DNA of 64,000 bases from a bacterium (lineage in GTDB: Bacteria; Patescibacteriota; Minisyncoccia; Phycocordibacterales; UBA918). Every line of letters begins with the position of its first letter. The stretch's first letter is position 1. Location: assembly GCA_043719295.1 (NCBI GenBank), contig JAYSUD010000012.1, positions 26,790 to 90,789 on the forward strand, written 5' to 3'. The notes beneath the pieces are model-generated. The model was not told the DNA's origin. It searched no databases and was given only the letters and a program-made list of their open reading frames with translations. The position numbers and the translations under genes are program-made. Positions 27,167-63,702 of this stretch are shown here, in pieces.

Positions 27167-27565
27167 TTGAAGGTTCCTTTGGTTGTTTTGTTATTACAAT
27201 AAACCGTGCGCCTCAGGCACATATACTCGTAAAGATCTTGAACTATTCCCTAAGACGACTGAACTCGTCTTTTCTTACCAAAAGAGCGATATATACAAAA
27301 AGCAGGCATATGCCTGCTTTTTGTATATCTTAGTCTAAATGTACTCAGACGTTAATTTACTTCACTCTAAAAACTTACAGTTTCAGTACACCTTGTCAGG
27401 ATTCTGTCCGACATTCGTCTCTAGAATCCTAGGCAAGGTCGGTAAGAGTGATATTAAATCACTCTTACCTCATACAGAGGCTGTATACCTTTTGGCTATT
27501 CTATTTCGGTTTCACCTCATAGAATTGCTCAAAAGCTCGGTGAAAGTGCATCAAAGCACCTTCAC

Positions 27566-27593
27566 TCCTTACAGGAGCAGTACACCTTTTGGA
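27566..27593. repeat. Copy of dispersed motif CTCCTTACAGGAGC(A/T)GTACACCTTT(T/C)G (also at 57336-57360; a related gtacaccttttgg motif lies at 59324-59338)
   Basis: Seen directly. It contains the CTCCTtacAGGAG mini-palindrome. It lies in the 475-bp non-coding gap after rplK. Confidence 0.5.
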
Positions 27594-27645
27594 TAGATTA
27601 TTTCGCAAAGCTCATAATCTACCTCAAAAGCTTCGTTAAAGTAAT

Positions 27646-28071
27646 TTAGATTACTTTAACGCCCATGCTTCGACAAGTACCCTCGATGATCTTCATAGCA
27701 GCTTCGATTGTCGCTGCGTTGAGGTCGGGCATTTTTATTTCTGCGATAGCTCGGATTTGGTCTTGTGTGATGTCCCCTACTTTAGAAGTAGCATTCTTTC
27801 CTGACCCTTTCTCCTTTCCAATAGCCTTAAGAATAAGACGTGATGCTGGAGAAGTCTTAAGGATAAATGAGAATGATCGGTCGTCAAATACAGTCAGTTC
27901 AACTGGCACCACCTCACCCATACGAGACTCACGAGTTTGCTCGTTGAATTGATTTACGAACTCACCAATGTTGATTCCCGCTTGTCCGAGTACTGGCCCT
28001 AACGGTGGAGCTGGTGTAGCTTTACCTCCTGTTGCCTGTACTTTAATCTTTTTTAATATCTTTTTTGCCAT
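27646..28071 (-). CDS. rplK: 50S ribosomal protein L11
   Basis: [35 protein letters not shown]... is the canonical L11 sequence. Confidence 0.95.
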
Positions 28072-46453: not shown

Positions 46454-46947
46454 ATGGTCGAAGTTACTTGCAAACAGTGCTCAAAGTTATTTAATGCTAA
46501 ACCATCTTGGATTAAAAATGGGTATGGTAAATTTTGTTCTCGTGAGTGTGGCCATAAAGCAAATCGTACAGGTAAAGTAGTGACCTGTTTTATCTGCAGT
46601 AAGGAGGTTTATAAACAAGGTAAAGCCTTAAAAGGTTCTAAGAGTGGTAAATTTTTTGTTCAAAATCATGTCAGACAAAATGGAGAAATACTGAGTTTAT
46701 TGCAGAAAAACATGCTAATTGGAAAGGTGGTTTGCACGCATATCGAAGAATAAAAACGCAAAGTGGTGACATACAAATTTGTACCATATGCAAAATTACC
46801 GACAAGAGAGTGCTCGCTGTACACCACATCGATCAGAATAGAAAAAACAATACCATTGAAAATCTTGCCTGGTTGTGCCACAATTGCCACCACCTTGTCC
46901 ATCACTACAAAGAAGGGCAAGATTCACTTATGGCGGCTATGGTATAA
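46454..46947 (+). pseudogene. HNH endonuclease disrupted by a frameshift in a T6 homopolymer (46652-46657); 3' end overlaps tRNA-His
   Basis: Frame A (46454-46753) encodes FCSRECGHKANRTGK zinc-ribbon-like repeats. Frame B, from ~46651 to the TAA at 46945-46947, encodes FCSKSCQTKWRNTEFIAEKHANWKGG...AVHHIDQNRKNN...LCHNCHHLVH (HNH motif). The two frames join if the T6 run were T7. Confidence 0.6.
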
Positions 46948-47004
46948 TGGCTATTACTGGAGCTTGTGGAGCTCTCAATCCGAGTTCAATCCTCGGTAGC
47001 CGCC
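46931..47004 (+). tRNA. tRNA-His (GTG) with encoded G-1 and C73
   Basis: Cloverleaf folds. Acceptor gGCGGCTA/TAGCCGCc, anticodon stem GGAGC/GCTCT with loop TTGTGGA, T-arm CCGAG-TTCAATC-CTCGG. Confidence 0.85.
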
Positions 47005-47008
47005 CACG

Positions 47009-47035: not shown

Positions 47036-47036
47036 G

Positions 47037-47196
47037 TGGGCGGTTAAGAAACTGCCCTACGGCAGTTTCGTCCGGGAATTGAAAGGCGGAGTCATGTCGC
47101 TTGCGACAGACGAGTCAGGGTCGTGAGCGATATTGAAACAAGGAGACTTGCGACTATGTTTCAAATCGACTCCTGACCAATTCCCGGTAGCCGCCC
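47037..47196 (+). ncRNA. ~160-nt structured element closed by an acceptor-like helix GGGCGG/CCGCCC and ending with a 13-nt copy of the tRNA-His 3' end (CGGTAGCCGCCCA); candidate small RNA or att-site scar
   Basis: Nested helices are seen directly: CCGGGAATTG(47071-80)/CAATTCCCGG(47177-86), AAACTGCC/GGCAGTTT, GGAGTC/GACTCC, TTGAAACA/TGTTTCAA. A T-rich run follows at 47197-47215. Confidence 0.3.
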
Positions 47197-47341
47197 AATT
47201 TTTTGAGATTTTTTTACAGCGCATTTTAGATCTCTTTTTTGTATCTATTGTACTCAGTTGAACCCTGTGCAATTTCTATAAATAACCAGTGACCGTGATC
47301 TTCCTGTCATACGCATAAAGCTATTTACAATACTTGTGTTG

Positions 47342-56733: not shown

Positions 56734-57165
56734 CTACTCAATATCTGACTGTACTTGTAATAACATCGCTTTTGCCCTGTCGTGCGACAGACGTTCAGAA
56801 GCCTCTCTAAAAGTAAACCACCCTGCTTCTTTAACTTCTTCTTCTTGAATGACAAAGTTCGCGTCAGTAATTATCCCAATATAGTAAAGAACTTTTTTAT
56901 GAATTATTGTCCCTTCATAGGGAAATGTATATTCTTGGGTATACACAACGTCAGTTTTAAGTTCTTTTGGTACCAAACCTGTTTCTTCAAATAATTCCCG
57001 CAAAGCCCCCTCTTCTTGTGTCTCCCCTACTTCAGGATGACCCTTAGGGAAGGTCCAATATATATCGTTAGCAAGACCGTGTTGATGAATTAGAAAAACT
57101 TTCCATTGAACTTGGTCTTTTAAAAGCGGAATGACTCCGAAAGAAATATCCTCTTTGTGTTCCAT
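56734..57165 (-). CDS. Nudix hydrolase
   Basis: Nudix box GHPEVGETQEEGALRELFEETGL. Confidence 0.8.
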   Translation of the reverse strand: MEHKEDISFGVIPLLKDQVQWKVFLIHQHGLANDIYWTFPKGHPEVGETQEEGALRELFEETGLVPKELKTDVVYTQEYTFPYEGTIIHKKVLYYIGIITDANFVIQEEEVKEAGWFTFREASERLSHDRAKAMLLQVQSDIE

Positions 57166-57232
57166 TAGTATGCAGTATACAGGTTAGAATAGTTTAGACT
57201 ATAGGACTCACATAAACGGCACACTTCTTCCA

Positions 57233-57314
57233 TACAGGAACTGTTCAGGTTGTAAGATATTTCTACAAAATATCGACAACCTTTTAAACAATGACACTGC
57301 GTCATTGTTTAACG
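57233..57314. repeat. Hairpin repeat family A, copy 1 (ACAGGAACTGTTCAGGTTGTAAGATATTT-loop-AAAATATCGACAACCT plus a TTAAACAATGAC/GTCATTGTTTAA hairpin)
   Basis: Seen directly. It has 14-16-bp inverted arms, AGGTTGT(a/c)(a/g)GATATTT / AAATATC(g/a)ACAACCT. Confidence 0.55.
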
Positions 57315-57452
57315 TTGTGCTACACAAAAATACTCCTCCTTACAGGAGCTGTACACCTTTCGCATAGACATGCTCAAGGTCTTGCGAAACTCCAAGTATT
57401 CGTTTCTCACACCGTACTATGCGTACGACTCGTCCTATTTTGTTTGCCTTTC

Positions 57453-57538
57453 TTACAGGAACTGTTCAGGTTGTATGATATTTTTCCAAAAAATCGACAA
57501 CCTCTTGAACAGTGACATCAAGTCACCGTTCAACCTTG
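57453..57538. repeat. Hairpin repeat family A, copy 2
   Basis: ttacaggaactgttcaggttgtatgatatttttccaaaaaatcgacaacctcttgaacagtgacatcaagtcaccgttcaaccttg. Confidence 0.55.
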
Positions 57539-57584: not shown

Positions 57585-58313
57585 TTGACTATGAAAAAGA
57601 AGCGTCCAAAAATGCATCCGTTTGTAGATGCTCTTGAAAACCCAAAGTCAAAATACTTTGTCCTTTCAAACGACGTACTTGCACTCGCTACAGTAGTTTC
57701 AGTATTTGCTATTGTGCTTGAGACCGTGCCCTCACTCTCTTCGTATCACACTGTCTACATCACCATTGAATATATTGCGACCGTTCTGTTTACTCTAGAA
57801 TACAGCGCCCGTTTTATTGGTGCCAAGCATAAACTCAAGTATATTTTCAGTTTCTTTGGACTCATTGATCTTCTCGCAATTGCGCCTACATACCTTGGTT
57901 TTGGAAATTACACATTCTTAAAAACAGTTCGTTCATTACGCATCGTTCGGCTTCTTCGAATCATTCGACTCACCCGAATGTCTAAGCTTAAAAAGAAAGA
58001 AGGAACTTCTTCTCTGTACGCACTTAACATCCAAATATATGCAATTACCCTCGGTACTGCTGTGCTGATTCTTGGAACACTGTTTTACATCTTTGAGGGT
58101 GATTACTCTTATGCACAGGACATCCCTTCAGGTATGTATTGGGTATTTAAAGCAATTATCGGTGGGGTCTCTTACCCACAACCAATAACAACGGGGGGTA
58201 CGGTAGTACTTATCCTCGCACGCTTCTCAAGCATGATTCTCTTAGGACTTATGATGAGCCTCGTTGCAACTATGATGCGCAAAATATTAATTGGTTCAGA
58301 GAAGGATTCTTAG
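57585..58313 (+). CDS. Voltage-gated-like ion channel family protein (ion_trans fold)
   Basis: S4-like segment RSLRIVRLLRIIRLTRMSKL with Arg at every third position. A pore-like region follows. Confidence 0.65.
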   Translation: MTMKKKRPKMHPFVDALENPKSKYFVLSNDVLALATVVSVFAIVLETVPSLSSYHTVYITIEYIATVLFTLEYSARFIGAKHKLKYIFSFFGLIDLLAIAPTYLGFGNYTFLKTVRSLRIVRLLRIIRLTRMSKLKKKEGTSSLYALNIQIYAITLGTAVLILGTLFYIFEGDYSYAQDIPSGMYWVFKAIIGGVSYPQPITTGGTVVLILARFSSMILLGLMMSLVATMMRKILIGSEKDS

Positions 58314-59369: not shown

Positions 59370-59420
59370 TTTTCAAGTCCTGACGTAAAGCATAGAAATG
59401 CTTTACTTCCCGGGACAGGA
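59370..59420. repeat. Repeat B copy 1: inverted tRNA-Leu 3'-end-derived motif (TTCAAGTCCTG-[hairpin insert]-CCCGGGACAGG)
   Basis: On the plus strand it reads like the tRNA-Leu T-arm/acceptor 3' side with a 26-nt hairpin inserted. The second copy is at 59483-59530. Confidence 0.45.
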
Positions 59421-59435
59421 ATCTTTTTCTCTACG

Positions 59436-59484
59436 AGAACTGTACAGGTTGTCGATATTTTCTTTAAAAATATCAGACAACCTT
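59436..59484. repeat. Hairpin repeat family A, copy 3
   Basis: gagaactgtacaggttgtcgatattttctttaaaaatatcagacaacctt. Confidence 0.55.
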
Positions 59485-59530
59485 TTCAAGTCCTGACGTG
59501 ATGTGTCCCACACATCACTTCCCGGGCACA
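59483..59530. repeat. Repeat B copy 2
   Basis: ttttcaagtcctgacgtgatgtgtcccacacatcacttcccgggcaca. Confidence 0.45.
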
Positions 59531-59556
59531 AAAAAATCCCCGTAGGGATTTTATTT
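59530..59556 (-). terminator. Intrinsic terminator immediately after tRNA-Leu (minus strand)
   Basis: AAAAAAATCCCCGTAGGGATTTTATTT on plus. The minus-strand reading gives a hairpin and then a T-run. Confidence 0.55.
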
Positions 59557-59557
59557 G

Positions 59558-59639
59558 TGCCCGGGACAGGACTTGAACCTGCACACCTTTCGGCTTATCC
59601 ACCTCAAGGATAAATGTCTACCAATTTCAACACCCGGGC
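59558..59639 (-). tRNA. tRNA-Leu (GAG), long variable arm
   Basis: The revcomp gives GCCCGGGTGTTGAAATTGGTAGACA-TTTATCC-TTGAGGT-GGATAAG-(long var arm)-GCAGGTTCAAGTCCTGT-CCCGGGCA. The anticodon loop TTGAGGT gives GAG. 82 nt. Confidence 0.85.
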
Positions 59640-59695
59640 AATTACTCTTACGAGTTGAGCTATTATGCATTAAACTCTTCCAGTATTCAAGGAAA

Positions 59696-59728
59696 AGAAA
59701 AAATCCCCTTTCGGGGATTTTTCTTGTG
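59696..59728 (-). terminator. Intrinsic terminator after rplS (AAAAAATCCCCTTTCGGGGATTTTTC)
   Basis: Seen directly. Confidence 0.65.
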
Positions 59729-59745
59729 CTTTTTAAATTGTAGTA

Positions 59746-60381
59746 TTACGCTTCTTTCTTTTCATCTACTGCTTCAGTAACTTCTGCAACTTCACTTACT
59801 ACTTCTCCTTCTGGAGTTGCTTCCGTGACTTCTGCTTCTGTAGGAGCTTCTACAACTTCTGATTCAGCTACACTCACCTCAGCCTCTGCAATAGCCTTCT
59901 CAGCTTGAACTTTTGCTTCGAGCTCAGCTTGAATTGTTGCCTCAACTTCAGCTGCAATTTTTGCTTCTTCTGCAGCCTTAACTGCCTCTTCAGCTTGTGA
60001 CGTTGTAGAAAGTGAAACCAAACTCATTCGTCGCATTTGTCGCTTGATTTCTCGAGCCACCTTCTCTCGGATGTAATAGAGTTTTGCTCGACGTACCTTT
60101 GCTCGCTTAACAATTTCAATCTTGTCGATGTTTGGAGAATAGAGTGGATAGATTTTTTCAACTCCAACACCACTTGCCATCTTTCGAACCGTGAATGTAG
60201 CTCCGGGCTCGCTCCCGTGTTTACGAGCCAAAACTACTCCTTCAAAAATCTGAATACGAGTTTTACCCTTATCTTGAATCTTCTGGTGCACTTTAACCGT
60301 ATCTCCAGCTCTGATGCCAAGATTCTTTCGGTCGTCCATGTTTACTGGAGATATAACAATCCCCGTTAGTGTTGTGTTCAT
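59746..60381 (-). CDS. rplS: 50S ribosomal protein L19 with ~85-aa acidic Ala/Glu-rich C-terminal tail
   Basis: GDTVKVHQKIQDKGKTRIQIFEGVVLARKHG...PLYSPNIDKIEIV is the L19 core. The tail is EAVKAAEEAKIAAEVEATIQAELEAKVQAEKAIAEAEV... low complexity. Confidence 0.9.
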   Translation of the reverse strand: MNTTLTGIVISPVNMDDRKNLGIRAGDTVKVHQKIQDKGKTRIQIFEGVVLARKHGSEPGATFTVRKMASGVGVEKIYPLYSPNIDKIEIVKRAKVRRAKLYYIREKVAREIKRQMRRMSLVSLSTTSQAEEAVKAAEEAKIAAEVEATIQAELEAKVQAEKAIAEAEVSVAESEVVEAPTEAEVTEATPEGEVVSEVAEVTEAVDEKKEA

Positions 60382-60427
60382 ATAATTAAAAATAGCCCTT
60401 TAAAGCTCGGGTACTTTACCATAGGTA

Positions 60428-61168
60428 TCATCCCTCTGCAATACGTTCAGCAGCCTCTTCAAACGATTGTGGCAATGGCGCTATAAAACGCTCTGTCTGC
60501 CCTTCTCTAACTTCAAGCTCGAGTACATGGGCATGGAGCGCAAGTCTTTTAAATCCAAGATTATTTGAGCCCTCTACTTCATGTTTTGCGTAAAAGCTGT
60601 CCCCCACAATAGGTCGTCCTATCGCTTGTAAGTGGACACGAATCTGATGAGTACGGCCTGTTTGTGGCATGAGCTTCATGTACGAAAACGCTTCATCTTC
60701 ATAGCGACCTTCTCCAATACATTCCCAAAGCGTTATTGAGGGACGTAAAAGGCCTCGAGCACCATGTTGTGCTGAACGCATCCGATAGTCTTTTTTACTC
60801 CTCCCAATTGCTCTATCAATGGTTCCCCATCGTTCTCGAACCGCTCCATATACAAAAGCTCGATACTCTTTTTTTGCTAACCGATCGTGAAATTGCTTTT
60901 TAAGATGGGTAAATGAATCTTGATTCTTTGCCATGAGCATAATTCCTGAAGTATCTTTATCAAGTCGATGCACAACCCCCGACCGCTCAAGTTGCTCCCC
61001 TTTTTGTGAAAGCTGTACTTCTCCAACTCCTTTTGCTTCTGGAAGATACTGTAAAAACCAATCAACGACTGTTGGCTCAACTATGTGTCCCGTATTATGC
61101 ACCATCAAACCTTCTGGTTTGTTGATAACCAATACGTCCTTATCTTCAAAGAGAATTTCTATATCCAT
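60428..61168 (-). CDS. RluA-family pseudouridine synthase
   Basis: VLVINKPEGLMVH and catalytic HRLDKDTSGIMLMAK motifs. Confidence 0.85.
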   Translation of the reverse strand: MDIEILFEDKDVLVINKPEGLMVHNTGHIVEPTVVDWFLQYLPEAKGVGEVQLSQKGEQLERSGVVHRLDKDTSGIMLMAKNQDSFTHLKKQFHDRLAKKEYRAFVYGAVRERWGTIDRAIGRSKKDYRMRSAQHGARGLLRPSITLWECIGEGRYEDEAFSYMKLMPQTGRTHQIRVHLQAIGRPIVGDSFYAKHEVEGSNNLGFKRLALHAHVLELEVREGQTERFIAPLPQSFEEAAERIAEG

Positions 61169-61181
61169 ATATATTTACGTA

Positions 61182-61454
61182 TTAAAACTTGATTGAAAAA
61201 TCATCACCTATTTTCTTTGTGGTACGCCAGTCTACCGACACTCCTTCAACTTTTGCCTGTAATGAACCTTCACAGAGATATTCAACAAAGTCTTTAAGTT
61301 GATCTGGCAGTCCTTGTGCACACACTGCAACAGTCCCATCAGGTAGGTTTTGTACGTACCCAGTGATACCAAGAGTTGTGGCCGAAACTTGTACATAATC
61401 TCGATATCGAACATTCTGCACTTTCCCAGTCACAATGCAATAGATTTCAGTCAT
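61182..61454 (-). CDS. acyP: Acylphosphatase
   Basis: IVTGKVQNVRYRDYV and GYVQNLPDGTVAV motifs. 90 aa. Confidence 0.8.
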   Translation of the reverse strand: MTEIYCIVTGKVQNVRYRDYVQVSATTLGITGYVQNLPDGTVAVCAQGLPDQLKDFVEYLCEGSLQAKVEGVSVDWRTTKKIGDDFSIKF

Positions 61455-62113
61455 ATATTTTGTATTTCTTTTACTTTATCAAGCCAACCCATAAGTCGAA
61501 AGAAAAATTTTGTGTCATGAACATATATTTGTACAGTGCCATTGGGTAATGTATTCCTCTTATTTTTACTTGCACTACTTTTTTTCGAGTATGTCTTATA
61601 AAAATAATTTCTTGATATGCCAGATACCCCAGACCAATATGCTTCTGCTTTTTCGATATTACGATGCGAAAAAGTATGTACCTGACCACGAAATTTTTCT
61701 TCTGTTATTCCACCACATTCTCTAAAGAAACGCATCATCGTAGTAATTACTGCAGGATCACTGTTAGACAAACGAGCAGTCTGTTGAGTTTTTCCTCCTT
61801 CACCCCAATACAAAGCAACACCTATGCACCATAACATATTTTGTGAAAGCAGGGGCACTTCCAAAGAAGCTTCAGTCATTATTTTTTCTCTGCGCTTCTG
61901 CGTATTTGCAACTTTTGAAATTCGGCGTTTTTCAATAGCATCTATACTATGTCCATTTTTATTAAGTTTTGTGCGTTGTTTAGAAGTAAGTACAACATCA
62001 CGAACCCAACAACTAACACTACTTTTCGCAACACCTAAAATAGATGCAATCTCACCCATAGATTTACCACTCTTACGTAACATAATCGCATCATGTTGTT
62101 CTTTTGTCTTCAT
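61451..62113 (-). CDS. HTH-domain protein with C-terminal LAGLIDADG-like endonuclease-like region; 92 bp upstream of tRNA-Val
   Basis: N-terminal KSGKSMGEIASILGVAKSSVSCWVRDV (HTH). The central LWCIGVALYWGEGGKT resembles a single LAGLIDADG motif (L.G...GDG). The C-terminal Lys-rich region is typical of that fold's DNA-binding saddle. Confidence 0.4.
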   Translation of the reverse strand: MKTKEQHDAIMLRKSGKSMGEIASILGVAKSSVSCWVRDVVLTSKQRTKLNKNGHSIDAIEKRRISKVANTQKRREKIMTEASLEVPLLSQNMLWCIGVALYWGEGGKTQQTARLSNSDPAVITTMMRFFRECGGITEEKFRGQVHTFSHRNIEKAEAYWSGVSGISRNYFYKTYSKKSSASKNKRNTLPNGTVQIYVHDTKFFFRLMGWLDKVKEIQNI

Positions 62114-62205
62114 AACAGAAATTGTACTGTATATGTATTATATAGTCGTTCTGTTTTATAGACAACAGAGCACAAAGTGTATATACTGTCGGTCACAGAA
62201 GTTAC

Positions 62206-62278
62206 GCGCGATTAGCTCAGTTGGTAGAGCAATTCGTTTACACCGAAAAGGTCGGGGGTTCAAGTCCCTCATCGCGCA
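62206..62278 (+). tRNA. tRNA-Val (TAC)
   Basis: GCGCGAT-TA-GCTCAGTTGGTAGAGC-A-ATTCG-TTTACAC-CGAAA-AGGTC-GGGGGTTCAAGTCCCTC-ATCGCGC-A. Anticodon TAC. Confidence 0.85.
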
Positions 62279-62286
62279 CTTTTATG

Positions 62287-62317
62287 AAAAAGCTAAGCCT
62301 CGTGCTTAGTTTTTTTA
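62287..62317 (+). terminator. Intrinsic terminator after tRNA-Val (AAAAAGCTAAGCCTCGTGCTTAGTTTTTTT)
   Basis: Seen directly. A second terminator-like hairpin lies at 62446-62472 (AAAAACAGTCCCTGCGGACTGTTTTTT). Confidence 0.65.
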
Positions 62318-62410
62318 TAAACAGTCGCAAGAGACTTGAAAAGCTTTTGTGGAATTTTATGAGTGAAGCGAAATAAAATACCCAAAAGGTATACCGATTC
62401 AGTATGAATC

Positions 62411-62430
62411 AAGTCCCTCATCGCGCACAA
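62411..62430 (+). repeat. 20-nt direct copy of the tRNA-Val 3' end (TCAAGTCCCTCATCGCGCAC), 133 bp downstream of the tRNA
   Basis: Identical to 62260-62279, seen directly. A terminator-like hairpin follows it, as one follows the tRNA. Confidence 0.6.
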
Positions 62431-62661
62431 AACGTCAAGAAAAACAGTCCCTGCGGACTGTTTTTTAGTTTTGTGAAGCGGAGACATGTTTTGCTCTTTT
62501 CCAGAGCAAAACAGTCGAGCTGGGGCAGCTAAGTTCTTATGAACGTAGTGAATTAGAAACTTGCGCCAAAAGAAAATACTTTCGGTTCTTACCGAAGGTT
62601 TTTTTATGTAAGCAGAGAGGCGAGAAAAGGTTGACTGATACTTTCTGGATTTTACAAACAG

Positions 62662-62700
62662 AAATATCGACAACCTGTACTGAACATGTAATGTTCAGCT
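62662..62700. repeat. Hairpin repeat family A, partial copy 4, fused to the GTACTGAACATGTAATGTTCAGC hairpin (inverse copy at 59308-59334)
   Basis: aaatatcgacaacctgtactgaacatgtaatgttcagc. Plus-strand 59308-59336 reads gaacattacatgttcagtacacctttt. Confidence 0.5.
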
Positions 62701-63617: not shown

Positions 63618-63689
63618 GCTTCGATAGTTAAATGGATATAACTGCGGACTTCTAAGCCGTTATTCTAGGTTCGATTCCTAGTCGAAGCA
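63618..63689 (+). tRNA. tRNA-Arg (TCT), probable
   Basis: GCTTCGA-TA-GTTAAATGGATATAAC-T-GCGGA-CTTCTAA-GCCGT-TATT-CTAGGTTCGATTCCTAG-TCGAAGC-A. The anticodon loop CTTCTAA is identical to canonical tRNA-Arg(UCU). There is one A31/G39 mismatch in the anticodon stem. Confidence 0.8.
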
Positions 63690-63702
63690 CAACATAATTA
63701 AA

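What the first reader, a model, noticed from the sequence alone, without database searches (positions are those of the whole stretch)
62206..62475. tRNA-Val 3' end plus terminator is duplicated 133 bp downstream; the same pattern recurs at tRNA-Leu and tRNA-His
The 20 nt TCAAGTCCCTCATCGCGCAC (the tRNA-Val T-arm/acceptor 3' side) reappears at 62411-62430. As with the tRNA itself, a terminator hairpin follows immediately. tRNA-Leu on the minus strand has its 3' end CCTGTCCCGGG echoed 140 nt downstream (plus-strand CCCGGGACAGG at 59410-59420) and again at 59521-59528. tRNA-His shows the same at 47184-47196. Three of four tRNAs in the window carry short downstream 3'-end duplicates at 130-190 bp. 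This is the geometry expected for tRNA-targeting integrative elements that have collapsed to tiny remnants, or for a recurrent tRNA-primed duplication process.
Basis: seen in the sequence. Interest (0 to 1): 0.55.

Follow-up and report, generated by a model that had tools for sequence, protein, structure and literature searches.

The report
Structured repeat modules capping tRNA genes
The repeated tRNA tails are real, but they are not scars of integrated islands: each is the outer strand of a small, strongly folded repeat module, apparently undescribed, that sits behind tRNA genes and some protein genes in many ultra-small (CPR/Patescibacteria) bacteria.

Summary
tRNA-Val's last 20 nt recur exactly at 62409-62428. 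tRNA-His recurs over 13 nt and tRNA-Leu over 11 nt.

These repeats are one part of a larger unit: tRNA 3' end (T-loop to discriminator), terminator hairpin, inverted copy of that 3' end, a conserved folded core, then the direct copy.

Two core types occur. Type A (74 nt) has 10 copies in this window. Four lie at tRNA-Leu/Val, three directly after the rplK stop codon, and three in another intergenic region. Type B lies at tRNA-His and tRNA-Val.

Type A was found more than 120 times in metagenome contigs and in CPR MAGs of several lineages. It almost always lies 3' of a same-strand gene, and in half the cases that gene is a tRNA. All 17 of its base pairs covary. G.U pairs outnumber A.C pairs two to one. 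Rfam 15 has no match.

No integrase or transposase was found in the window. Orthologous loci carry the same small units, not islands.

Best reading: an uncatalogued, CPR-specific family of structured 3'-trailer repeat modules. Their closing helix is copied locally from the upstream gene's end. Function is unresolved.

The parts
62206..62279 (+). tRNA-Val(tac). Its last 20 nt (62260-62279, from T-loop position 55, i.e. one base after T54, to the discriminator plus 1) are repeat copy 1.
   Evidence: ARAGORN; Rfam 69.7 bits; D6
62286..62316 (+). Terminator hairpin 1 (GCTAAGC-CTCGT-GCTTAG plus T7).
   Evidence: Sequence; fold. One search lists this stem on the minus strand only.
62320..62340 (+). 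Degenerate 5' arm of unit V1: the remnant of the Pa hairpin 3' half plus CGCAAGA, then T' (GAGACTTGAA), the complement of the T-loop. Relative to the orthologous L001 unit, about 28 nt (S' plus the Pa 5' half) are deleted.
   Evidence: Pairwise alignment
62339..62412 (+). Type A core, unit V1 (P3 long stem plus Pb hairpin).
   Evidence: CM R1, 85.1 bits, E 7e-17
62409..62428 (+). Direct copy 2 of the tRNA-Val 3' end (20/20). It is the 3' strand of the unit's outer helix.
62439..62475 (+). Terminator hairpin 2. It is not homologous in sequence to terminator 1.
62473..62572 (+). Type B core (GCGGAGAC-hairpin-GTCGAGCTGGGG...AACTTGCGCC), unit V2.
   Evidence: Same arrangement in L001.
62578..62606 (+). 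Terminator hairpin 3.
62625..62698 (+). Type A core, unit V3. It is a mosaic. Its P3 shares a 19-nt exact stretch with Leu unit U1. Over its Pb region it shows a 41-nt, 85% complementary inverted match to Leu unit U2.
   Evidence: CM, 45.6 bits; I1 and I7
59557..59639 (-). tRNA-Leu(gag).
59521..59566 (-). Long hairpin: tRNA 3' end plus trailer (CCCGGGCACAAA), terminator, then the inverted copy S' (TTTGTGCCCGGG).
   Evidence: I9
59409..59517 (-). Unit U1: Pa hairpin (59517-59499), T' CGTCAGGACTTGAA (59498-59485), type A core (59486-59424), and a decayed direct copy CCTGTCCCGGG (59419-59409).
   Evidence: CM, 51.1 bits
59291..59405 (-). Unit U2: Pa hairpin (59405-59386), T' (59385-59372), type A core (59373-59307), and a diverged T-loop plus 3'-end copy TTCAAGTCCTAACGAGGGCAC (59311-59291).
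   Evidence: CM, 73.1 bits; D7
46933..47005 (+). tRNA-His(gtg).
47036..47197 (+). Unit H1: S' GTGGGCGGTTA (47036-47046, with a U.G wobble to the tRNA end), Pa hairpin (47048-47069), T' GTCCGGGAATTGAA (47070-47083), type B core, then CAATTCCCGG plus TAGCCGCCCA (47178-47197).
   Evidence: fold z = -8.7
27368..27660 (-). Three tandem type A units directly after rplK. The last codons GTTAAAGTAAT (27660-27650) pair with ATTACTTTAAC (27645-27635), with the stop codon in the loop. Cores lie at 27562-27635, 27465-27540 and 27368-27442.
57225..57506 (-). Three tandem type A units in the intergenic region between the NUDIX gene (56734-57165, -) and the gene at 57585 (+).

Best explanation
What it is. 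The duplicated tRNA tails are the distal strands of the closing helices of a family of modular, strongly folded repeat units. The family is specific to CPR/Patescibacteria and has no match in Rfam 15.

Layout. A unit lies in the sense orientation behind a gene, as a chain:
- X0, the last nucleotides of the upstream gene. For tRNAs this runs from T54 of the T-loop to the discriminator, plus the next 1-3 genomic bases.
- A hairpin or intrinsic terminator.
- X0', the inverted copy of X0, often split by a small 'Pa' hairpin.
- A conserved core. Type A is 74 nt: a long P3 stem with a GUGAG...CGAAA apical loop, a UGUAC linker, and a Pb hairpin. Type B is about 100 nt.
- X1, a direct copy of X0.
- The pattern can then repeat.

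Shown:
- the layout;
- the conserved, covarying core;
- the sense-strand bias;
- the wide distribution;
- turnover of units between orthologous loci;
- exact tandem unit duplications.

Inferred, origin. The flanks are made by local copying of the neighbouring sequence. First comes an inverted copy across the terminator hairpin. Then comes a direct copy across the core hairpin. The likely mechanism is hairpin-templated strand switching (palindrome extension and correction). Arrays then grow by unequal recombination between the direct repeats. I give this mechanism about 0.35.

Inferred, role. The units are transcribed as part of 3' trailers or read-through transcripts and fold as RNA. They act in cis as stable 3'-end or insulator structures, in the manner of REP/BIME elements. 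X' can pair either with the upstream gene end or with the downstream copy. I give a host function of this kind about 0.35. Persistence as essentially selfish DNA is about as likely.
For: Layout. The same order recurs at three window tRNAs and behind tRNAs in CPR MAGs from four named lineages (Minisyncoccia, Kaiserbacteria, Saccharibacteria, Paceibacterota). In the metagenome loci it follows tRNAs with 25 different anticodons. The modal direct copy is 21 nt and starts at the first T-loop base. T' tracks each tRNA's own T-loop sequence.

Structure.
- Folds of the three loci give z = -7.8, -12.7 and -8.7.
- In type A, 96.4% of cells are paired and 17 of 17 pairs change on both sides (332 cells). 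None of 500 shuffles reaches this. The covariation score is 0.475, against at most 0.08 for slid partners.
- The Pb stem has 42, 35, 24 and 12 compensatory sequences on an unfitted MAFFT alignment.

RNA level and strand.
- G.U pairs number 50 and A.C pairs 24, p = 0.003.
- 49 of 55 units lie 3' of a same-strand gene: 28 tRNAs and 21 ORFs. Only 4 lie behind an opposite-strand gene.
- Window units follow their tRNA's strand even where that strand is opposite to most neighbouring genes.

Not tRNA-specific.
- The window has 10 type A copies, 6 of them away from tRNAs.
- Units directly after the rplK stop codon were read in at least 6 divergent genomes. In each, the inverted arm covaries with the last codons.

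Local copying.
- The inverted copy runs on into the 3' trailer.
- The direct copy follows each genome's own T-stem: CCCTC in the window and CTCTC in L001.
- Flank copies are far above control: 30% are >=10 nt, against 1%.
- Exact tandem unit duplications that include the terminator occur in L105 and L024.

No catalogued match. Rfam 15 returns only tRNAs at gathering threshold and nothing credible at E<=10.
Against: Expression is untested. Most tRNA-linked units lie after an intrinsic terminator, so they would be transcribed only by read-through or from an unseen promoter.

The P3 sequence, and not only its pairing, is very conserved across lineages. That fits recognition by a protein such as a transposase, or recent horizontal spread, at least as well as a passive stabiliser does.

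The sharp, recurrent T54 boundary looks like a site-specific event rather than random template switching.

Loci such as L094, L074 and L013 show the core inside or after a partial tRNA 5' copy. Simple palindrome extension does not predict this.

Method caveats:
- The covariation alignment A4 was fitted to the model.
- The search pattern fixed 19 nt of P3.
- The fetched loci were selected for containing the element.
- The G.U versus A.C count could be inflated by model-based alignment.
Confidence: 0.6

Rival explanations
1. The units are non-autonomous mobile DNA of the MITE, REPIN or PATE kind. A transposase encoded elsewhere in the genome moves them and targets the T-arm region of tRNA genes and similar 'GGG|' sites. 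The Pa and Pb hairpins would be its subterminal recognition structures.
For: - Copy number is high: 10 per 64 kb.
- The core is nearly identical across distant CPR lineages.
- Type A is nested inside type B cores, right after ...CGAGCYCGGG (L132, L118, L122).
- Type A is inserted into partial tRNA-Gly copies just 5' of the T-loop (L094, L074).
- V3 is a mosaic of U1 and U2, which implies exchange between loci within the genome.
- The short-read contig L157 ends within about 120-140 nt of both tRNA/repeat loci, as expected where assembly breaks at repeats.
Against: - The outer inverted repeats are not conserved between copies. They are copies of the local upstream sequence, unlike the terminal inverted repeats of a transposon.
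- There is no constant target-site duplication.
- No transposase domain was found in the ORFs flanking the tRNAs and arrays, nor in 20 of the 30 window ORFs of >=230 aa.
- The strong sense-strand G.U bias and the orientation with the upstream gene point to RNA.
- The rplK-linked units are positionally conserved across deep divergence.
Confidence: 0.15
2. The units are genes for trans-acting tRNA-mimic RNAs. RNase P and RNase Z would excise each unit at its acceptor-like closing helix. The product would carry the cognate tRNA's acceptor and T-arm 3' strand, might receive CCA, and would act as a decoy or regulator for tRNA-binding enzymes.
For: - The generic unit has cloverleaf topology: P1, Pa, P3, a 5-nt linker, and a Pb hairpin followed directly by the P1 3' strand.
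- In young copies the P1 3' strand equals the tRNA's own 3' end, including the discriminator.
- Each unit has its own terminator.
Against: - No tRNA model or ARAGORN hit.
- P1 continues through the discriminator and trailer, so there is no free NCCA-type end.
- Only about a third of tRNA-linked copies keep >=16 nt of identity. That looks like decay after birth rather than selection for mimicry.
- The same core is closed by rplK codons or arbitrary sequence elsewhere.
Confidence: 0.1
3. The repeats are attL and attR of tRNA-targeting integrative elements that decayed to 130-190 bp remnants.
For: - The direct repeat runs from the T-loop to the tRNA 3' end. From my own knowledge, this is the identity block typical of integrases that cross over in the T-loop (Williams 2002, Nucleic Acids Res).
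- The repeat lies downstream of an intact tRNA.
Against: - The intervening DNA is a conserved, covarying module, not variable cargo or debris.
- The same modules occur after rplK and in non-tRNA sites.
- No integrase was found in the window ORFs tested.
- Orthologous loci in L001 and L024, and 44 tRNAs in other contigs, have their copies within 400 nt.
- The core pattern is essentially absent from viral contigs: one hit, judged by eye to be a chance match.
- An inverted copy of the tRNA end is also present.
Confidence: 0.05
4. The units are decayed tandem duplicates of the tRNA gene whose middle was replaced by an inserted hairpin element.
For: - L094, L074 and L013 contain partial tRNA copies. 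These comprise the 5' 28-50 nt, in one case with a D-loop insertion, followed by a type A core and a T-loop, next to the intact tRNA.
- S' resembles the acceptor 5' strand.
Against: - In the window and L001, S' matches the reverse complement of the 3' end plus trailer. In L001 the match is 11/11, against 9/11 for the tRNA 5' end. In the window's Leu unit, TTTGTGCCCGGG extends into the complement of the trailer.
- No D-arm or anticodon-arm remnants are present.
- The same architecture is built on rplK codons.
Confidence: 0.05

Closest known systems
REP/BIME elements of enterobacteria, and similar structured intergenic repeats (BOX, Correia/NEMIS, Rickettsia palindromic elements)
   Same: - Short, abundant and intergenic.
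- Strongly hairpin-forming.
- Mostly at the 3' ends of transcription units.
- Modular or mosaic clusters.
- Transcribed with the upstream gene (known for REP, inferred here).
- Lineage-restricted.
   Different: - The conserved part here is a 74-100 nt multi-helix core with compensatory covariation across several CPR lineages, not a species-specific 35-nt palindrome.
- The outer helix is copied from the upstream gene's last nucleotides.
- Enrichment at tRNA genes is strong: about half of the copies.
- No RAYT-type transposase is known or was tested for.
att sites of tRNA-targeting integrative elements (T-loop crossover class)
   Same: A direct repeat of the tRNA from the T-loop to the 3' end lies downstream of an intact tRNA gene.
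   Different: - Only 130-190 bp lie between the repeats.
- That DNA is a conserved structured core.
- There is an extra inverted copy of the tRNA end.
- No integrase is present.
- The same units occur at rplK and other non-tRNA sites.
t-elements and tRNA-like processing signals (plant mitochondrial t-elements, the MALAT1 mascRNA precursor)
   Same: - A cloverleaf-like fold placed at transcript 3' ends.
- An acceptor-like closing helix next to a small T-arm-like hairpin.
   Different: - No T-loop consensus in Pb.
- The closing helix extends through the discriminator.
- No evidence of RNase P or RNase Z cleavage.
- Many copies per genome, arranged in tandem.
Quasipalindrome correction by intramolecular template switching (Ripley model)
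   Same: It explains perfect inverted copies next to hairpins, and how the non-coding arm can follow changes in the coding arm (the tRNA end, or the rplK codons).
   Different: The known process yields point or short templated mutations. It is not known to build 20-nt flanks recurrently at a fixed tRNA position. Here it is only inferred.

Membership tests
Integrase att remnant (tRNA-targeting genomic island) | Direct repeat identical to the tRNA 3' segment, flanking the insert | tested here: met
   20/20 at Val, 13 nt at His, 11 nt at Leu
Integrase att remnant (tRNA-targeting genomic island) | Tyrosine or serine integrase gene at one end, here or in sister genomes, with variable cargo between the repeats | tested here: not met
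   No integrase domain in the ORFs flanking the tRNAs and arrays, nor in 20 of the 30 window ORFs of >=230 aa. L001 and L024 carry the same small conserved units. The content between the repeats is a conserved covarying core.
MITE / non-autonomous transposon | Terminal inverted repeats conserved between copies, and a fixed-length target-site duplication | tested here: not met
   The outer inverted arms differ from copy to copy and equal the local upstream sequence. Flank copies range from 0 to 33 nt.
MITE / non-autonomous transposon | A cognate transposase encoded somewhere in the same genome | not testable with these tools
   Only 64 kb of this genome is available, and none was found in it.
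REP/BIME-like structured intergenic repeat | High-copy intergenic palindromic units, clustered, co-oriented with and 3' of genes | tested here: met
   10 type A copies per 64 kb, in 4 clusters. 49 of 55 lie 3' of a same-strand gene.
REP/BIME-like structured intergenic repeat | Association with a RAYT (Y1 transposase), or a demonstrated effect on mRNA stability or termination | not tested
   Needs complete genomes and experiments.
tRNA gene or pseudogene | Match to tRNA covariance models, with D, anticodon and T arms | tested here: not met
   ARAGORN and Rfam tRNA hit only the 4 true tRNAs, even at E<=10.
Any Rfam 15 family | Score at or above the family's gathering threshold | tested here: not met
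   Window and 12 related loci return only tRNA. E<=10 scans of the three regions give only noise.
Structured RNA (generic) | Compensatory base-pair changes across homologues, with G.U tolerated on one strand | tested here: met
   Caveats: alignment A4 is fitted to the model, and 19 nt of P3 were fixed by the search pattern.

The most novel reading that the evidence does not exclude
The units would be a new kind of protein-independent, self-propagating RNA or DNA module that copies the 3' end of whatever gene lies upstream. Behind tRNAs they would be cut out of read-through transcripts as a genome-wide set of isoacceptor-specific mimics of the tRNA acceptor and T-arm. These mimics would regulate or decoy tRNA-processing or tRNA-targeting enzymes in CPR bacteria.
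Probability: 0.12. Interest if true: 0.85.

Novelty: new variant of a known kind. Interest (0 to 1): 0.62.

Why it matters
CPR/Patescibacteria have tiny, streamlined genomes. Yet this window spends about 1.5 kb of its 64 kb on these units, and they shadow half or more of the tRNA genes seen here.

- **For RNA biology.** The family is widespread, covarying and apparently uncatalogued. A calibrated model (R1) now exists to census it.
- **For annotation.** Short tRNA 3'-end repeats in these genomes should not be read as island att sites. The units also probably break short-read assemblies, as contig L157 suggests.
- **For mechanism.** The chain of gene end, inverted copy, core and direct copy is a clean natural case for studying how hairpins template local duplication. 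It could also show how 3' trailers are processed in organisms with reduced RNase sets.

Tried and rejected
- **Rfam.** A gathering scan of the window, E<=10 scans of the three regions, and a gathering scan of 12 related loci returned only tRNAs and noise.
- **Ribozymes and other known RNAs, by eye.** I compared the cores with hammerhead, twister, HDV-like and pistol ribozymes, T-box, the L1, L10 and L11 rRNA-mimic leaders, retron msr/msd, TnpB and IscB omega RNA, IS110 bridge RNA and integron attC. The core motifs do not fit, and none has tool support.
- **PBS-like priming by mature tRNA.** Rejected. The complement follows the genomic trailer rather than CCA.
- **Viral origin.** One hit in IMG/VR, judged by eye to be a chance match.
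- **Literature.** Six full-text searches and three papers examined. Nakagawa et al. 2026 (PMC13011429) describe group I introns at position 35/36 of Patescibacteria tRNAs, which is unrelated. Weinberg 2017 (PMC5737381) and the 50-genome ncRNA survey (PMC11109978) do not mention these motifs.
- **Wobble test on the S' arm.** Uninformative: 5 against 5, with most mismatches at the ends.
- **Ungapped palindrome scan for S-terminator-S'.** Too strict. It missed the window's own bulged hairpins, so 10 of 120 against 0 of 360 is only a lower bound.
- **Exact-protein look-up for near-identical strains.** It returned only a 2.6-kb contig that ends near both repeat loci, so no strain polymorphism could be read.
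- **Type B.** The regex was noisy and no covariance model was built for this core.
Full report
**1. The observation**

ARAGORN and Rfam agree on four tRNAs: His 46933-47005 (+), Leu 59557-59639 (-), Val 62206-62279 (+) and Arg 63618-63690 (+).

- **Val.** The 20-mer TCAAGTCCCTCATCGCGCAC is exact at 62260-62279 and 62409-62428. It occurs nowhere else in the window. A 12-pair terminator-like hairpin follows at 62439-62466.
- **His.** The tRNA repeats 13 nt, at 46994 and 47185.
- **Leu.** The tRNA repeats 11 nt, at 59419-59409 on its own strand.
- **Arg.** Nothing lies downstream.

**2. What lies between the repeats**

The three regions fold far better than shuffles, with z = -7.8, -12.7 and -8.7. 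Reading them side by side shows one layout:

1. The tRNA 3' end. T is the T-loop. S is the T-stem 3' strand, the acceptor 3' strand and the discriminator.
2. A terminator hairpin.
3. S', the inverted copy of S, which continues into the trailer.
4. A small hairpin, Pa.
5. T', the complement of the T-loop.
6. A conserved core.
7. T plus S again.

There are two core types.

- **Type A.** Its consensus is AAGACCTTTTGAGATATTTT, a loop of the form GTGAGC...GCGAAAC, AAAATATCCAAAAGG, TGTAC, and a hairpin NNNNC-TGTAA-GNNNN. It occurs twice behind tRNA-Leu (U1, U2) and twice behind tRNA-Val (V1, V3).
- **Type B.** Its consensus is GAAAGGCGGAGNC, a hairpin, GNCGAGCYGGGG..., a hairpin, and ...TGACC. It occurs behind tRNA-His and as the middle unit behind tRNA-Val.

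The terminators after copy 1 and copy 2 at Val share no sequence. The 'duplicated terminator' is therefore an analogous part of a repeating module, not a duplication by descent.

**3. Distribution**

*Genome collection.* A degenerate pattern from the type A 5' arm hit 35 genome contigs. I took nine hits in CPR MAGs as candidate elements. Eight lay 60-200 nt downstream of a same-strand tRNA. The ninth, L010, has no tRNA and looks like a chance match. The MAGs are Minisyncoccia, Kaiserbacteria, Saccharibacteria and Paceibacterota. The other hits looked like chance. L001 and L024 are syntenic with the window.

It hit one viral contig, which I judged by eye to be a chance match.

*Association with tRNAs.* Among the 124 pattern matches (about a dozen later judged chance hits), 41 follow a tRNA, with 25 different anticodons. 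The core starts 90-330 nt after the tRNA end. Another 59 have no tRNA within 700 nt.

*Orientation.* With at least 450 nt of context on both sides, 49 of 55 units lie 3' of a same-strand gene. Of these, 28 are tRNAs and 21 are ORFs. Only 4 lie behind an opposite-strand gene.

*tRNA 3'-end copies.* Of 113 tRNAs in these contigs, 44 have a >=13/16 copy of their 3' end 40-400 nt downstream. None of 565 shuffles does.

**4. The structure is conserved**

On a MAFFT alignment of 76 cores, RNAalifold finds the long stem P3 and the hairpin Pb. Pb shows 42, 35, 24 and 12 compensatory sequences.

A covariance model (R1) finds 120 copies in 0.6 Mb of related contigs. On that alignment:

| Measure | Observed | Control |
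|---|---|---|
| Cells paired | 96.4% | 76.6% (shuffle mean) |
| Pairs changed on both sides | 17 of 17 | 9.9 (shuffle mean) |
| Shuffles reaching the observed values | 0 of 500 | n/a |
| Covariation score | 0.475 | <=0.08 (partners slid 1-3 columns) |

G.U pairs (50) outnumber A.C pairs (24), p = 0.003. That points to an RNA read in the sense of the upstream gene.

Two caveats apply. Alignment A4 is fitted to the model. The search pattern fixed 19 nt of P3.

**5.

With filters off, R1 finds 10 type A units:

- V1, V3, U1 and U2 at the tRNA-Val and tRNA-Leu loci.
- Three in tandem at 27368-27635 (-).
- Three in tandem at 57225-57506 (-).

The first tandem array starts at the rplK stop codon. 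The last codons, GTTAAAGTAAT, pair with ATTACTTTAAC, and TAA sits in the loop. Three units follow, and then a terminator.

The same arrangement of rplK end, inverted copy and type A core occurs in L049, L088, L089, L113 and L135. In each, the non-coding arm matches that genome's own codons.

In arrays the Pa hairpin is simply the 3' arm of one unit paired with the 5' arm of the next. This gives the chain X0-loop-X0'-core-X1-loop-X1'-core-X2.

**6. Dynamics**

- Window and L001 share the Val-proximal type A unit. The window has lost about 28 nt, namely S' and half of Pa. Each genome's direct copy carries its own T-stem variant, CCCTC or CTCTC.
- L024's tRNA-Val carries two type B units as a near-exact tandem duplication that includes the terminator. 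L105 has an exact 171-nt tandem unit.
- V3 combines the P3 of U1 (19 nt exact) with a Pb region matching that of U2 (41-nt inverted match, 85% complementary).
- Only about a third of tRNA-linked copies keep >=16 nt of identity to the tRNA. The rest grade down to none. The flanks therefore look born perfect and then decay.
- Type A is nested inside type B (L132, L118, L122). It also occurs inside partial tRNA copies, just 5' of the T-loop and next to the intact tRNA (L094, L074, L013).

**7. What it is not**

- **A catalogued RNA.** There is no Rfam 15 family.
- **A tRNA.** No tRNA model matches the units.
- **An island remnant.** No integrase, transposase or reverse transcriptase domain was found in the ORFs flanking the tRNAs and arrays, nor in 20 of the 30 window ORFs of >=230 aa. 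The genes are ordinary housekeeping genes.
- **A product of priming by mature tRNA.** The inverted copy follows the genomic trailer. It includes CCA only where CCA is encoded, as in L104.
- **A plain tandem tRNA pseudogene.** S' matches the reverse complement of S plus trailer better than it matches the tRNA 5' end.

**8. Interpretation**

*Shown.* This is a CPR-restricted, abundant, modular family of structured units. The units sit in the 3' trailers of genes, with a strong preference for tRNAs. Their outer helix is a copy of the upstream gene's end.

*Inferred, origin.* I favour local hairpin-templated copying, with about 0.35 confidence. An inverted copy forms across the terminator, and then a direct copy forms across the core hairpin. 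Array growth follows by unequal recombination between the direct repeats. This explains four things:

- the gene-specific flanks;
- the continuation of the inverted copy into the trailer;
- the way the non-coding arm tracks the tRNA or the rplK codons;
- the exact tandem duplications.

It does not easily explain the sharp T54 boundary or the partial 5' tRNA copies.

*Inferred, role.* The sense-strand G.U bias, the orientation, and the deep positional conservation after rplK argue for an RNA that is transcribed with the upstream gene. The most likely role is a REP-like element that stabilises or insulates the 3' end. A largely selfish element is about as likely. Expression is untested.

**9. 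Comparison with known systems**

The repeat geometry alone matches the T-loop class of integrase att sites (my own knowledge of Williams 2002). Every other defining feature of an island fails.

The nearest functional analogues are REP/BIME and other structured intergenic repeats. The fold also resembles tRNA-like t-elements.

Three features appear to be new:

- the multi-helix core conserved across several CPR lineages;
- the borrowing of the upstream gene's last nucleotides for the closing helix;
- the tRNA preference.

I found no description in six full-text searches and three papers examined.

**10. Verdict**

- The island-remnant reading is not supported.
- The idea of a recurrent duplication process is right in spirit.
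- What is there is more interesting than what was proposed: an apparently undescribed structured repeat or RNA family of CPR bacteria.
- I rate it a new variant of a known kind, with interest 0.62.

Noticed in passing
window 27368-27660 (-): Three tandem type A units start at the rplK (L11) stop codon, which sits in the loop of a hairpin made from the last codons and their inverted copy. nusG-rplK is not followed by rplA here or in L049 and L089. This fits the reported frequent loss of L1 in CPR bacteria.
   Followed up: partly
window 57225-57506 (-): Three more type A units of a variant form (GGTTGTCGAT...ACAACC) lie in the intergenic region between a NUDIX gene and a putative channel gene. 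No tRNA is nearby.
   Followed up: partly
L013 3287-3470; L094 and L074 (metagenome contigs): Type A cores lie UPSTREAM of intact tRNAs. They are preceded by exact copies of the tRNA's 5' 28-50 nt. In L074 the partial copy also has a hairpin inserted in its D-loop. These are partial tRNA copies interrupted just 5' of the T-loop.
   Followed up: partly
L132 6378-6560; L118, L122, L085, L090: Type A units are nested inside type B cores, always right after ...CGAGCYCGGG. This suggests a preferred junction or insertion point.
   Followed up: no
L157 (Logan contig, 2623 bp) = window ~59610-62230: The only public contig with the identical L19 protein ends within about 120-140 nt of both the tRNA-Leu and tRNA-Val repeat loci. 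This is what would be expected if these repeats break short-read assemblies.
   Followed up: no
window 61451-62113 (-): A 220-aa ORF is divergent from tRNA-Val. It has only a weak, sub-threshold N-terminal HTH match (HTH_23, 21 bits). It is conserved in L157. Its function is unknown, and there is no recombinase domain.
   Followed up: partly
window 59746-60381 (-): Ribosomal protein L19 carries a C-terminal Ala/Glu-rich extension of about 90 residues. The underlying DNA contains 24-nt tandem repeats (D3).
   Followed up: no
L024 7597-7900: Downstream of tRNA-Ser(tga) a different repeat (CGCCATAGCTTTAGCGTCGGCGGGATTCGCCTAGTAAAGCATGTCGGGCTACGG) occurs at least twice around a masked N run. It is unrelated to types A and B.
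   Followed up: no
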